Assembly (NCBI GenBank): GCA_963514005.1
Contig: OY740790.1
Coordinates: 37,944,001 to 38,008,000, forward strand
Direction of reading: 5' to 3'
DNA: 64,000 nt
DNA from: Raja brachyura
Lineage: Eukaryota
Positions 4,240 to 55,081 of this stretch are shown here, in pieces (position 1 is the first letter of the stretch; each line of letters opens with the position of its first letter). Below the pieces are notes generated by a model that was not told where the DNA came from, ran no database searches, and was given only the letters and a program-made list of their open reading frames with translations. The position numbers and the translations under genes were made by a program.

Positions 4240-4371
4240 ATGTTTAAGAAGGAACTGCAGATGCTGGAAAAATCGAAAGTCTGAAGAAGGGTCTTGACCC
4301 GAAACGTCACCTATTCCTTTGCTCAATAGATGCTGCCTCACCCACAGAGTTTCTCCAGTATTTTTATCTAC
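4240..4371 (+). mobile_element. Short Penelope pLTR-derived insertion (inverted tail plus hammerhead-bearing unit) with 12-bp TSD
   Basis: Flanked by ctgattaactga at 4228-4239 and 4372-4383. The body matches the 3' end of the Penelope element at 53581-53678. Confidence 0.85.
4278..4311 (+). ncRNA. Minimal type I hammerhead ribozyme motif, intact core
   Basis: CTGAAGA (4281-4287), extra A, stem II GGGTC/GACCC (4289-4300), GAAA (4301-4304), palindromic ACGT helix III, predicted GUC cleavage after 4308, short stem I GT/AC. Confidence 0.7.
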
Positions 4372-4422
4372 CTGATTAACTGATGTACTTTAGGAAAGAG
4401 CATTTGTCATCTTCACTCAATT

Positions 4423-4724
4423 GGTGGCATGGTGGATAAAACCAATGTTTCACAGTGGCAGAGACACGGGTTGGATGCTGACCTCGGGTCCTCTTGGTGT
4501 GGAGCTTACACATTCTTCCTGTGATCATGTGGGTTTTTCTCAGTTACTCTGGTTTCCTCCCTTATTCCAAAAATGTGCAAGTTGGTTGGTTAATTGGTCA
4601 CTATAAATTGCAGATGCGGGGTCGGATCTAGGGGGAGCTGATGGGAATATATGGAGAATTAAAAATAACACAATATTGAATAGTTGGCATTAACCTGATA
4701 GGCTGAAGGGCCCGTTTCCATGGG
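4423..4724 (+). mobile_element. tRNA-derived V-SINE (HE1-like), decayed
   Basis: tRNA-like head (ggtggcatggtgg...gggttggatgctgacc), V-domain-like core 'tgtggagcttacacattcttcctgtg...gtgggttttt...ctctggtttcctccc' and CR1-like tail 'ggctgaagggcccgtttcca'. Confidence 0.7.
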
Positions 4725-4781
4725 CTCTCTCTCGCTCTCTCGCTCTCTCGCTCTCTCGCTCTCTCGCTCTCTCTCTCTCTC
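4725..4781. repeat. (CTCTCTCG)n/(CT)n microsatellite
   Basis: Directly visible at the SINE 3' end. Confidence 0.9.
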
Positions 4782-5027
4782 CCCAACTGCAGTTCAGACC
4801 CAACATGCTAGTCCTCATTTAAGGTCAAATAATATTTGCTATTAACGTCTGGCATTGCCAGTAATTCTCATTTCTTGCGAATGATAAACTCAAATACAAA
4901 TACCTTGAATTTTGACCTCATCTTAACGATTTTAAAAATTCTGAACAGTGCAAAAAAGTGAGAGTTTACTAACTGGTAATATTTTATTCCATGATGCTTC
5001 ACAACCAGGCAATTACTTTTGAAGTCT

Positions 5028-5193
5028 GAAAGGAACTGCAGATGCCGATTTACATGAAAAAACACAAAGTGCTGGCGTAACTCAGTGGGTCAGGTGGTAT
5101 CACATGGATAGATGATGTTTTCTTCCAGGTTCCTTGTTTCTCCACATCCTGCAGAAATGCTGCCTGACCCACTGAGAGACTCCCAACACTTTG
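5028..5193. mobile_element. Older, decayed fold-back Penelope pLTR pair
   Basis: Minus arm with tail (aggaactgcagatgc...caaagtgctggcgtaactcagtgggtcagg) followed by a plus arm (cctgacccactgag...caacactttg). Confidence 0.7.
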
Positions 5194-5544
5194 AACGATA
5201 GTTTTGAACAATAGTTTTTTGAACGATAGTTATGTTTGCAAGTACAGTGAACGTTTTGTGCATAGCTGGGTCCCGCAAGCAGTAAATATAAATTATTTGA
5301 ATTGTATTTAACGTTGATATGGAGAAAAGAGTATTGGCTCGGATACATTTATTTAAAAAAACATTTATCTTTTATTAAAACCACGGGATCTTTTCTGTCA
5401 CTAGAAAAGATATTCAGTCTCATTTTAACTTATGAGAGGTAACAGCTTCACTGGTGCACTGATTCCATAATTAATGCGTCTCCGGTGTGAGGTGACAAAT
5501 ATCTCGCGACTTGTGACCAGTCTTCACATGAATGGAAAGACTTA

Positions 5545-51355: not shown

Positions 51356-52598
51356 GCAGGAGAGCAACAAAAGATGTAAAGCTGATGCTGAACAACGTAA
51401 AGAGAATTCACGTGGCGTTGTTTATATCATTAAGGTTGTGTTGATTGCAAATAATCCAGTGGCAAGTTCTTAAAAGATAATGAGCAAAATTCTAAACTAT
51501 TGTTAACACTTATTCAGTAAATAAGTGCACAAATTAAGTAAGACAATGTTCTATGAGAATAGTTGAATAGTTTTCTAAGTTGGATAATATTGTCCACAGA
51601 ATTCCCTGATTAATGTTGCATTGTCGCTTACATTTGATAATAAAATGAAATAATATCTGGTGAACATTTTTTAAAAATCTGCAGTTTAGGAAATTATGCA
51701 AATTAGTGAAAAATCAATTATCTTTAAAATAAAATCGGGGAACTTCTACATGGTATAATGTTAGAAGCTAAATATGTTCCATCAGTATTCCTATGGATCA
51801 ATTAAAAACAAACTTGACATGATTCATAGCAAGAAGATCAAAATCGTCGTTGCAAACAAAAGAGTAAACTGTGGATATTGGAGCCCATTTAATCTATCAA
51901 GATAAACCGGCTAGGTTACAGAATGCATTTTCATATTGTGATGTTGAGAAATCAGCAAAGAACATGAAAATGACGCCTTTAATTCAAAAACACTGCCAAA
52001 GAATATCTTGAACAAATTATTTGCACAGATTAGTTAAGTGGGAGGAATGGCAACCAAACCACCAAAAATAAGCTTCAGATAAAAGAGCAAAACCAGAATT
52101 TATGTTTTTATTACCCAAAGTTGGACTGTTTCCTAGTGCAGCCAATGTATGAATGGTTGACTCTGTGGTTGTGGTTTCCTGCAGATTTATAGGATGATTC
52201 CTGTCCAATTATCTAAATAATACATATCTATGCTGACCATAGTTTCATGTCTTTAATGGCAGCAAACGCTATAAGAAGTTACACAATAAACTACGAGTGA
52301 ATTGGAAGTGTATTCTACATACAAATATTTTAAAGTTGTTTTATAAGCTAATGTTATGCTGGGGAAAGGCCAGTAAAATGCTGAGCCTGAGCTGAATCAG
52401 CAGAATGATGGTCAGCTTGCCATTAAAAATAATAATTCCCCAAACTTATACACTTGTTGGATGATCTCTATTAACTACTGCTTCCTGTGGACCAATGCTC
52501 AACAGTTCTAAGAACGTGAGGAAATGTCTCTGATTTGTACATCTTAGATTGCCTTAATTTAACTGATGTGCTCTTTCTGCAAATCACAATCATCACAA

Positions 52599-53336
52599 AT
52601 GTCCTTGTTCTTCAGAGAACGGGGTTTCCCCTCCCCCACTATAGCTGAGGCTCACACCAGGGTCTCCTCCATACCCCGCAACACTGCCCTCTCTCCCCAT
52701 TCCCCCACTCACATCAAGGGCCGAGTCCCCCTGGTCCTCACCTTTCACCCCACCAGCCAGCGCATACAACAGATAGTCCGCCAGTTTCGCCACCTCCAAT
52801 GTGACCCCACCACTCGCCACATCTTCTCATCTTCCCCCCTGCCTGCCTTCCACAAAGACCGCTCCCTCCGCAACTCCCTTGTCAATTCTTCCCTTCCCTC
52901 CTGCTCCACCCCTTCCCCGGGCACTTTCCCTTGCAACCGCAAGAGATGCTACACTTGTCCCTTCACCTCCCCCATCCACTCCTTTCAGGGACCCAAGCAG
53001 TCATTCCAAGTCCGACAGAGGTTCACCTGCACCTCCTCCAACCTCATCTACTGCATCCGTTGCTCCAGATGCCAGCTGATCTACATAGGTGAGACCAAGC
53101 AGAGGCTGGGCGATCGTTTCGCCGAACACCTCCGCTCGGTCCGCAATAACCAACCCGACCTCCCGGTGGCTCAGCACTTCAACTCCCCCTCCCATTCCGT
53201 ATCCGACCTCTCGGTCCTGGGCCTCCTCCACGGCCAGAGTGAGCAACACCGCAAGTTGGAGGAGCAGCACCTCCTATTCCGCTTGGGGAGTCTGCATCCT
53301 CTGGGCTTAAACATTGAATTTTCTCAATTCTGTTAA
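52599..53336 (+). pseudogene. Penelope ORF C-terminus: RT thumb end, Cys-rich linker and GIY-YIG endonuclease
   Basis: 'FRERGFP', 'PLVLTFHP', linker 'PCNRKRCYTC', GIY-YIG-type 'NLIYCIRC..C..IYIGET...L..RF.EH' and terminal 'P.GLN'. The frame is uninterrupted but the RT core is absent. Confidence 0.92.
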
Positions 53337-53580
53337 CCCAGACTGTCCCCTCCCCTCCCCACCTCCCCACCTCTCCCTCAGCCCTCGGGCCCTGACATTC
53401 CTTCTCCATCTCCCCCCCCCCCCCCCCCACCCCAGTCGCACTAGCTTCTCATTTTCACACCACAAACAGCTCACAATGGCCTGTTTCCTTTATCATCAAT
53501 ACTTTTTTGCATATCTTTCATTCATTGTTCTTTATCTCTCCACATCACTGTTTATATCTCTCGTTTCCCTGATCCCTGAC

Positions 53581-53616
53581 CAGTCTGAAGAAGGGTCTCG
53601 ACCCGAAACGTCGCCT
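53581..53616 (+). ncRNA. Minimal type I hammerhead ribozyme motif, intact core
   Basis: CTGAAGA (53585-53591), extra A, GGGTC-TC-GACCC (53593-53604), GAAA (53605-53608), CGTC; predicted cleavage after 53612. Confidence 0.72.
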
Positions 53617-54947
53617 ATCTCCTTCGCTCCTTAGATGCTGCTGCACCCGCTGAGTTTCTCCAGCTTTTTGTGTAACCCCCGTGCTCTTTATGCACTTCAT
53701 TTCACTTATTCCATATATTTATTAGACATTGTTTATATTTTGACACTGGATGGCAACAGTGGTGTTTTAATTGAGATAATACAACTCACTGCCGTATTGG
53801 TGTAAGTTGAGTGCAACTTTTATAAGACAGGACAACCTATAACATATGTGAAGGTTTTAAAAACAATTCTGAATGCATGTCGAGCTTAATCAGCATATGA
53901 GAGGCAGACTTCTGCCTCCCACAGTTATTTTCAAATCTATCCCTCAATATGGAGCTCAACACAGTTTCCTGGTAAGTTGATTTGTCCAAGATGACTGTTC
54001 CCATTGGAGGCTCTTGGTTGGCCAGGGTTCAAAAGCTGTAATATGTTCAGAAATATTTTGTACAAACAATTTAAAAAAAAGTAGGATGGTATATATTTTG
54101 ATGGCTTGAGTGCAGAAGACCTGGACAGAACTTGGAAATCTGCTTTTCGGATTACTTGAGAAAATGTAAAATATTATCAAACAGTGAAAGCAAATTCAAA
54201 TATCTACAAGGAAGCAATGCAAGCCAGCCACATTGAATTGTAAGTGTCTGTTAGTTTCAGTAAATTGAGCAAGGTTTTTCTATGCTTTGGCTGTGCATGA
54301 ACGTCGGCTATCATCCCTGTTGTACATGAAGATCTGAACTAAAATTAACAAAATACCACTTAGTTTCTTTACAAGAGCACATATGGCCTTAGAAATCAAG
54401 TCTCCGGGATAATAAGGACTAAATAATGCAATAGCTTTGTGGAATCTAAATTGAGAACTTCAAAAGCACATAAATGCTTTCAATTATTGACATTCCGTAT
54501 TTTTTTTATACTGAATCCGTTAATAAGACTGAAGTACGTACTTTTATATGTTCAAATAAGTTAAACAGAGTGGTGCTTATGATGCTGCCTTTCCCATTCA
54601 AATTACATAGTCAAGGATATCTTATTGAAATAGCTATTTTAATAGATGCTTGCTCATCCTCCCATCAGGTTGTGCAATTTCAAGTCTATCCACTGATGCT
54701 TATTAAATGAATACTATTACAATATTGTAATCACCCCCACAAGATGAGACTTAAAGCATCTTTACATTTCAACTAAAAATTTGTTAAGATGGCACAAAAT
54801 TATTTCCTTTCTCAGCTGAGTAAATAATGGCATTTCCATGTCTTTAAGCAGACTGTATAGTCTTGTCTATTGGTACTAACTGTCCATTATCACAGAGAGA
54901 CTTCTATTTCCAAATGATGGTCCTAGAAACAGTACCAGGAAAGGCAA

Positions 54948-55081
54948 TGTGTGGGAAGGAACTGCAGATGCTGGTTTAAACTGAATATAGACACAAAAAG
55001 CTGGAGCAACTCAGCGGGACAGGCAGCATCTCTGGAGAGAAGGAATGGGTGATGTTTTGGGTCGAGACCCTTCTTCAGACT
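54948..55081 (-). mobile_element. Solo Penelope pLTR unit (134 bp, complete with tail)
   Basis: Runs from AGTCTGAAGA to ...ttcccacaca on the minus strand; core G12 mutated to A; possible 6-bp TSD aggcaa (54942-54947 and 55082-55087). Confidence 0.85.

What the first reader, a model, noticed from the sequence alone, without database searches (positions are those of the whole stretch)
4240..55081. Dispersed family of ~135-nt hammerhead-ribozyme-bearing mini-retroelements derived from Penelope pLTRs
Seen: the motif CTGA(A/T)GA-N-GGGTC-TC-GACCC-GAAAC-GTC-RCC or its decayed form occurs at about 4281, 17365(-), 17404, 25886, 31741, 41680(-), 42956, 53585 and 55050(-), plus an older relic at 44856. 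Two copies sit at the 3' end of GIY-YIG Penelope fragments. At least four carry no coding sequence and have their own 12-16-bp TSDs. Established: Penelope-like elements carry minimal type I hammerheads whose short palindromic helix III (here ACGU) is thought to work as a dimer, and an extra nucleotide after A9 is tolerated in some natural hammerheads. Inference: these may behave as a non-autonomous, retrozyme-like or SINE-like RNA mobilised by the Neptune-type enzyme. At about one copy per 7 kb here, they would be very abundant genome-wide.
Basis: partly seen in the sequence, partly recalled or inferred. Interest (0 to 1): 0.85.

Follow-up and report, generated by a model that had tools for sequence, protein, structure and literature searches.

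The report
Jumping gene's twin-primed ribozyme stubs
A Penelope-type jumping gene has left an estimated half million short copies of its ribozyme-like front end in this genome; most start at one sharp point and likely arise when its enzyme copies a short RNA from two fixed start sites, while a rare class that starts at the predicted cut site suggests that the ribozyme sometimes cuts in living cells.

Summary
The repeat is real: 50,946 exact copies of the 28-nt hammerhead core, control 0. It is the pLTR end of a young Neptune-type Penelope element with intact 4-kb copies. It does not behave as a separate SINE or retrozyme family: all 6 subfamilies include UTR-attached members and no jump junction recurs between loci. 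Nor is it smooth 5' truncation: only about 25% of cores keep the young UTR 7 nt upstream, with the loss peaking 2-3 nt before the CUGA box. 3' ends fall at two sites; in 41 of 42 classable head-to-head insertions one arm uses each site. Best reading: the element's own enzyme primes both target strands on a short leader RNA and runs off its 5' end. About 1% of young copies start at the predicted cut site, some as TSD-flanked arrays of 63-nt units: a likely genomic footprint of cleavage. Helix I has only 2 bp. Cleavage, RNA ends and mechanism are untested at the bench.

The parts
4241..4277 (-). tail-only arm (about +94 to +128) of a head-to-head insertion
4278..4372 (+). short arm (-3 to about +92); intact hammerhead core 4281-4308, predicted cut after 4308
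4228..4239 (.). left TSD, 12 bp (right copy 4372-4383)
17298..17395 (-). short arm of a head-to-head insertion, decayed core
17401..17536 (+). tail arm of the same insertion; 18-bp TSD with one mismatch at 17282 and 17531
25815..26010 (.). head-to-head pair joined inside stem II, no CUGA box; 14-bp TSD with one mismatch at 25805 and 26008
31738..31868 (+). old solo unit with tail, starting at -3; no clear TSD
41612..41709 (-). short pLTR end on an older Penelope body
41889..42461 (-). older Penelope ORF 3' part (GIY-YIG region), 75% identical to 52663-53243
42514..42558 (-). lone tail fragment
42923..43039 (.). head-to-head insertion: tail-only arm 42923-42950 (-), short arm 42953-43039 (+); 13-bp TSD at 42910 and 43040
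44850..44990 (+). relic of an older family; helix I could form 5 bp (read from the sequence)
52563..53333 (+). young Neptune ORF 3' part (Zn-finger-like linker, GIY-YIG)
53334..53581 (+). pyrimidine-rich 3' UTR of the young element
53582..53674 (+). short pLTR end; intact hammerhead core 53585-53612, predicted cut after 53612
54947..55081 (-). solo unit with tail, starting at -3; decayed core; no clear TSD

Best explanation
These stubs are the hammerhead-bearing front end of a young Neptune-type Penelope retrotransposon and are likely short products of its own enzyme, which would cut both target strands, prime one cDNA at each of two internal RNA sites and run off an RNA 5' end inferred to lie 2-3 nt before the ribozyme. 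Numbering: first C of CUGA = 0, C17 = +27. Shown in sequence: 5' ends peak at -2/-3; 3' ends fall at +86..97 or +124..134; head-to-head insertions use one of each; TSDs are mostly 10-19 bp. Inferred: the template is a short leader RNA from about -3 to +184..+283 (hammerhead, both priming sites, start of the ORF), made from loci where a pLTR runs into the ORF. One productive primer gives a solo, two give the inverted pair, and jumps from the RNA's 5' end back to its 3' end or to a priming site give tandem units. Solos lack the ORF-side sequence and are probably dead ends. The fixed end is most likely a transcription start (YCAGTC is kept in all six subfamilies; about 50:35 over nuclease trimming back to the protein-covered core). 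The ribozyme (2-bp helix I, probably needing a dimer or protein) is uncut in nearly all templates and likely cut in about 1-2%.
For: Genome counts: core 50,946; with GT 41,041 and AGT 31,281 (sums); CAGT 24,765; young UTR to -7 12,630. Sample, copies at least 88% identical: 18 5' ends in -7..0, 9 in -50..-15, 0 in -269..-51 (read). Intact partner: 3,988-bp tandem unit, 1,204-aa open frame, RT plus GIY-YIG. 41 of 42 classable pairs are short+tail, p = 2e-11 against 50:50; 35 of those 41 have a TSD of 10-19 bp. The short arm reaches over 5 nt further 5' than the tail arm in 20 of 41, so neither arm is a copy of the other (counted). Arms share 7 minority variants against 1.5 expected, maximum 5 in 500 shuffles. 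571 copies run into the ORF start; 24 of 30 end at +184..+283, and 23 of these are joined directly to another unit; the same junction repeats within L304-306 and within L320. Cut-site starts with plain flanks: 9 of 30 against 5 of 60 at +27, +29, +30, p = 0.012; with a TSD of 9 bp or more 6 of 30 against 1 of 60; two TSD-flanked arrays of 63-nt units. Two internal priming sites, a need for ORF-side RNA and uncut RNA as main substrate were shown in vitro for a lizard element (PMC11167929).
Against: No raw RNA reads: one search offered only contigs from relatives, so no RNA end, cap, cleavage or circle was seen. The 5' ends have a tail upstream (-14 to -305) and many lie inside the unit: 120 of 297 hits lack a recognisable hammerhead start. 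The fall from CAGT to the -7 pattern mixes truncation with other subfamilies' UTRs and fold-backs, so 25% understates attached copies (53 of 177 = 30%). The extra G before the start (48 and 60 of 100; 28% and 30% expected) also occurs at cut-site starts and can come from slippage, so it does not show a cap. The cut-site excess rests on 30 and 60 loci, the first ones in contig order; 8 of the 30 hits are extra members of three composite loci; +28 is also a short palindrome that favours fold-back. 10 of 52 pairs could not be classed, and one pair is duplicated by a DNA transposon. 2 of 15 pairs disagree between arms at common variants (+41, +80), and two more at +80. The isolated leader does not fold as a hammerhead at minimum energy.
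Confidence: 0.65

Rival explanations
1. Truncation hot spot: ordinary long transcripts are copied, and cDNA synthesis or second-strand joining fails preferentially just past the hammerhead (structure, entry into the pyrimidine-rich UTR, microhomology). No RNA end lies at -3.
For: A tail of other 5' ends exists; 5' junctions often show microhomology or local templated inserts; fold-backs occur at short palindromes such as stem II (25886).
Against: The stop lies on the far side of the structure; it is the same in six subfamilies with different UTRs and in relatives' contigs (loose ends at -4..-2 in 4 of 4 runs); identical junctions repeat within one insertion, in both arms at L304-306.
Confidence: 0.15
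2. SINE- or retrozyme-like family: short non-coding source genes with the internal promoter make the RNA, and the Neptune enzyme mobilises it in trans.
For: Sharp 5' end, TSDs, about 70% of hammerhead-start copies without UTR (124 of 177). 9 of 30 ORF-start copies begin at -6..+3 and would hold promoter, ribozyme, both priming sites and ORF-side sequence, so such mini-copies could act as sources. Retrozymes derive from pLTRs (10.64898/2026.07.22.740005).
Against: No solo-only subfamily among 6; the candidate variant is UTR-attached in 5 of 30; no jump junction is shared between loci; 96- and 132-nt solos lack the ORF-side sequence needed in vitro by the lizard element.
Confidence: 0.12
3. Ribozyme-driven cycle: cleavage and ligation give circles copied by rolling-circle synthesis (PMC4209133), or head-to-head structures arise by self-priming on an antisense template (PMC3846280).
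For: Tandem arrays with repeated junctions exist; arms share variants; a circular template cannot be told from repeated jumps by these data.
Against: Only 380 of 49,747 young anchors have a purine in place of C17; junctions lie at -3..-7 and +184..+283, not at the cut; neither arm can be a copy of the other in 20 of 41 pairs.
Confidence: 0.05
4. The boundary is a 3' splice site (pyrimidine tract plus CAG ending at -2), and solos come from spliced RNA.
For: YCAG after a pyrimidine tract in all six subfamilies; in Drosophila virilis an intron ends at the 5' side of helix I (PMC4209133).
Against: No common upstream exon (loose-end agreement 0.3-0.4); junctions reach -5 to -7 and beyond; upstream partners end at scattered places, not at one donor; no GT..AG joint among the joints shown (59 not shown).
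Confidence: 0.03

Closest known systems
Minimal hammerheads in pLTRs of Penelope-like elements (Cervera and de la Pena 2014, PMC4209133)
   Same: Type I minimal core, extra base after A9, G-C first pair of helix II, palindromic helix III without loop; mostly single copies, some opposite-strand pairs, read there as truncated elements.
   Different: Helix I is 2 bp (as in D. virilis) rather than 4-5; copy number is far above the 4,000-9,000 motifs given for coelacanth and Xenopus; the sharp 5' boundary and cut-site starts are not in the parts I read.
Poseidon element of Anolis, internal two-site priming (Frangieh et al. 2024, PMC11167929)
   Same: Two 3' ends about 35 nt apart (the tail), template reaching into the ORF start, mostly uncut ribozyme.
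   Different: Neptune clade. There no difference in start site between strands was seen and no RNA reads ended at the cut; here 41 of 42 pairs use one site per strand and a small class starts at the cut.
Inverted pLTR with tail at one end (Arkhipova et al. 2013, PMC3846280; Craig et al. 2021, PMC8557442)
   Same: Head-to-head arrangement, optional 30-40-bp tail at one end, TSDs.
   Different: Explained there by antisense self-priming or endonuclease resolution; the arm overlaps here favour two independent primers, like L1 twin priming (recalled; PMC2837659 seen as listing only).
Non-LTR retrozymes (Cervera and de la Pena 2020, PMC7229834; Li et al. 2026, 10.64898/2026.07.22.740005)
   Same: Non-coding, pLTR-derived, hammerhead-bearing, large TSDs; rare 190-330-nt tandem units occur here.
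   Different: Most copies are monomers or inverted pairs with a minimal, not canonical, ribozyme; no shared master unit; no circular RNA shown.

Membership tests
Penelope-like element, Neptune type (partner element) | single ORF with RT and C-terminal GIY-YIG | tested here: met
   1,204-aa open frame; RVT_1 E 5e-4 and GIY-YIG E 2e-3, both below Pfam cut-offs
Penelope-like element, Neptune type (partner element) | partial-tandem pLTR structure, optional tail | tested here: met
   5 of 20 fetched loci show the ORF start preceded by an upstream UTR; two 3' ends
Penelope-like element, Neptune type (partner element) | CX2-5CxxC linker between RT and EN | tested here: met
   motif read in the translation; definition from PMC8557442; shared with Nematis
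Penelope-like element, Neptune type (partner element) | RT phylogeny within Neptune | not tested
   no reference set fetched, no tree built
minimal type I hammerhead of pLTRs | CUGANGA, GAAA and UH boxes; extra base after A9; palindromic helix III | tested here: met
   majority letters agree in 5-6 of 6 subfamilies; exceptions at CpG sites and at N17
minimal type I hammerhead of pLTRs | helix II and helix I pairing with covariation | tested here: inconclusive
   helix II 4-5 bp kept in 110-125 of 133 copies; helix I only 2 bp; only one-sided changes (U-A to U-G), no two-sided change between subfamilies
minimal type I hammerhead of pLTRs | self-cleavage, as dimer or with protein | not testable with these tools
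   indirect only: excess of copies starting at +28
non-LTR retrozyme | head-to-tail tandem of a fixed unit with a hammerhead in each | tested here: not met
   bulk is solo, inverted or UTR-attached; rare tandems have locus-specific junctions; 63-nt arrays lack the ribozyme
non-LTR retrozyme | canonical hammerhead (about 6-bp helix I, loop-loop contact) | tested here: not met
   2-bp helix I; no Rfam match
non-LTR retrozyme | monomeric circular RNA | not testable with these tools
   only contigs of relatives available
SINE-like non-autonomous family | defined 5' end and TSDs | tested here: met
SINE-like non-autonomous family | own source genes (solo-only subfamilies) | tested here: not met
   the sample is small, so minor sources are not excluded
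SINE-like non-autonomous family | tRNA-, 7SL- or 5S-derived pol III head | tested here: not met
   the 5' end is the pLTR sequence itself; no such Rfam match in the window

The most novel reading that the evidence does not exclude
The Neptune enzyme works as a two-handed primer on a short ribozyme-bearing leader RNA, one fixed start site per target strand, and copies it repeatedly between a fixed 5' boundary (transcription start or ribozyme cut) and an internal start site, in the manner of telomerase repeat addition. The genome would then hold a fossil record of Penelope hammerhead cleavage in vivo and of retrozyme-like arrays being born in single insertion events.
Probability: 0.4. Interest if true: 0.8.

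Novelty: new variant of a known kind. Interest (0 to 1): 0.58.

Why it matters
How Penelope elements replicate, why their inserts carry inverted ends with a tail on one side, and what their hammerheads do in vivo are open questions in the papers read. With about 50,000 near-identical young copies, this genome turns them into countable junction statistics. It yields sharp bench predictions: RNA end at -2/-3, one priming site per strand, rare cut at +27/+28, jumps from +184..+283. Penelope RTs are the closest kin of telomerase (PMC8557442), so reiterated 63-nt units bear on how repeat addition and retrozyme arrays arise.

Tried and rejected
Rfam scan: no hammerhead family at E up to 5; the hairpin hits are inverted pairs or MITEs. 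Solo-only lineage marked by +43C: rejected; its fixed-spacing triplets are passengers of a DNA transposon. Cap evidence from the extra G: not separable from untemplated addition or slippage. Splicing or back-splicing as cause of the boundary: not supported. RNA evidence: three runs guessed to be RNA and one unclassified run, all contigs from relatives holding 27-71% of the words; they cannot show starts, strand or level, and depth was not used. Folding: monomer, leader and dimer minimum-energy structures are not the hammerhead fold; uninformative for a protein-assisted motif. No covariance model was built, because exact-pattern counts and BLAST answered the same question. Three look-ups of earlier findings returned nothing. 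Lunse et al. (RNA Biol 14:1499) was not held; I know it only through the review PMC6765202.
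Full report
Numbering: first C of the CUGA box = 0; C17 = +27; a cut product would start at +28. The genome (G000) has 2.7 Gb in 1,647 contigs. I did not determine the species; from memory the repeat resembles those of skates and rays (recalled, no call).

1. Observation. The exact 28-nt core occurs 50,946 times, its reversed control 0 times. 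In 864 kb (the window, its 200-kb neighbour, four 100-kb stretches picked blind, and one 200-kb stretch picked for density) five natural seeds gave 297 hits, shuffled and reversed controls 0. This scales to about 0.9 million fragments, about 0.55 million with the hammerhead start (an extrapolation).

2. The partner. The window's GIY-YIG fragment drew 144,001 first-look candidates, 148 of them scored. Of 20 long-frame loci fetched, 5 show the ORF start preceded by an upstream UTR; one tandem unit is 3,988 bp with a 1,204-aa open frame. It carries weak RT and GIY-YIG matches and a CX4CxxC linker, which marks Neptune or Nematis (PMC8557442, passages). The family is young, with many copies at 93-94% protein identity to the window fragment.

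3. The ribozyme. Across 133 ungapped copies in six subfamilies the catalytic boxes are constant, while the UTR upstream and the sequence after +30 differ. Helix II is 4 bp with a YYCG loop (a fifth pair is possible). Helix III is the loopless ACGU palindrome. Helix I is 2 bp; the third pair holds in 19 of 133. Changes between subfamilies are one-sided (U-A to U-G); none is two-sided. This matches the minimal pLTR hammerheads of PMC4209133 (parts 1-2 of 4 read), which already reports mostly single motifs and opposite-strand pairs and reads them as truncated elements. Rfam has no match.

4. 5' ends are sharp and lie before the ribozyme. Survival of the core with growing upstream match: 100% at 0, 81% at -2, 61% at -3, 49% at -4, 46% at -5 (a pattern that includes fold-backs), 25% at -7 for the young UTR. 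Among sample copies at least 88% identical to a reference, 18 end in -7..0, 9 in -50..-15, none in -269..-51 and 12 further up (read; 6 of 297 hits had no alignment). Of 177 copies with a hammerhead start, 68 are solo, 56 inverted arms and 53 UTR-attached; each of the six subfamilies has UTR-attached members; 15 copies were unassigned (its middle was cut from view, the tallies were not). YCAGTC at the boundary is kept in all six. D. virilis Penelope has an internal promoter (PMC2377424, passages). Contigs of relatives show loose ends at -4..-2 in 4 of 4 runs. G is over-represented before the start (48 and 60 of the first 100), but it also appears at cut-site starts, so it is not proof of a cap.

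5. Two 3' ends, one per strand. Young arms end at +86..97 or about +120..134. Of 52 head-to-head pairs, 41 are short+tail, 1 short+short, 0 tail+tail and 10 unclassable (p = 2e-11 for 41 of 42). 35 of the 41 have a 10-19-bp TSD. In 20 of 41 the short arm reaches further 5' than the tail arm, which alone holds +94..+128, so both were copied from RNA. The window's 4241 and 42923 insertions are the extreme form: a tail arm that stops where the short arm begins. Many of these loci came from searches for breaks at +27..+30, which biases arm lengths but not 3' ends. In 15 pairs with both cores the arms share 7 minority variants (shuffled mean 1.5, maximum 5), though 4 pairs disagree at +41 or +80. 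PMC11167929 (parts 1-2 of 4; supplements not read) showed two internal start sites in vitro but no strand difference. PMC3846280 and PMC8557442 (passages) describe the one-sided tail and give other explanations.

6. The template. 571 copies run on into the ORF start. Of the first 30, 24 end at +184..+283; 23 of these are joined directly to another unit, 14 of which start at -3..-7 and the rest at -14 to -305 or inside the unit. The junction differs at every locus but repeats within a locus (L304-306 in both arms; L320). This points to a short RNA with two ends, or a circle, copied more than once. No master mini-element appears. The +43C variant looked solo-only but is UTR-attached in 5 of 30 loci.

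7. Starts at the predicted cut. Of 49,747 young anchors beginning at +28, 380 have a purine in place of C17; the matching counts for starts at +27, +29 and +30 are 182, 315 and 249. Without the hammerhead directly upstream: 23 of 30 hits (15 of 22 independent loci) against 23 of 60. With stricter classes, plain-flank starts are 9 of 30 against 5 of 60 (p = 0.012), and with a TSD of 9 bp or more 6 of 30 against 1 of 60. Two insertions are arrays of five and four 63-nt units from +28 to +89, closed by one tail and flanked by a direct repeat. So roughly 0.5-1.5% of young copies likely come from cut RNA. The palindrome at +28 may explain the fold-backs but not the plain solos. PMC11167929 found no RNA reads ending at the cut.

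8. Mechanism. Shown: the boundaries, pairing rule, TSDs, junctions and intact partner. Inferred: two-strand priming, run-off at an RNA end, jumping, a start site rather than trimming, and cleavage. Untested: all biochemistry.

9. Comparison and novelty. The object is a known kind: pLTR stubs with minimal hammerheads. Retrozymes derived from pLTRs are in print (10.64898/2026.07.22.740005, parts 1-3 of 5 read; its closed supplements list chondrichthyan families and may include tandem forms like these; PMC7229834, passages). It fails the retrozyme and SINE membership tests that could be run, though it spreads like a SINE by number. I found no report of the fixed 5' end at the hammerhead start, the one-site-per-strand rule, or cut-site copies and arrays in eight searches. 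Subscription papers (Arkhipova 2006; Lunse et al., known only through PMC6765202, passages), Repbase and Dfam were not seen. Verdict: new variant of a known kind, interest 0.58.

Noticed in passing
G000:C1:3812660-3815640; L350, L353, L358, partly L023 and L258: A roughly 3-kb non-coding element with 14-bp terminal inverted repeats and an 8-bp TSD (hAT-like by recalled criteria), 96-98% identical between loci, carries several head-to-head Neptune stubs as passengers.
   Followed up: partly
G000:C1:162939586-162940241 and C2:59590118-59590479: Tandem hits of the pLTR-ORF-start junction with periods of 311 and 328 bp, candidates for retrozyme-like arrays; not fetched.
   Followed up: no
G000:C2:55272484-55272639: Three cut-site hits with a period of 61 bp, probably a third array; not fetched.
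   Followed up: no
L093:3293-3298 joined to 3259-3260; L179, L180, L352: Short tandem joints from +29..+35 back to -3/-4, often with one extra G, in 4 of 4 runs and in this genome; unexplained.
   Followed up: no
window 44850-44990: Relic of an older family whose helix I could form 5 bp, suggesting that the young families shortened it.
   Followed up: partly
window 46284-49236 (-), 30153-31102 (+), 56700-57340: LINE with an RVT_1 domain, and related fragments; L1-like by recall.
   Followed up: no
window 22199-23826: Tc1/mariner relic with about 230-bp inverted repeats and a transposase HTH match.
   Followed up: no
window 59036-59242: Palindromic MITE-like element that gives the spurious MIR837 hit.
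   Followed up: no
window 56268-56512 and 57341-57585: 245-bp direct duplication at 98% identity around a LINE fragment.
   Followed up: no
L091, residues about 170-480 of the open frame: A long Pro/Ser/Thr/His-rich stretch lies before the RT, so the frame is much longer than the 838-842 aa given for rotifer elements in PMC3846280.
   Followed up: no
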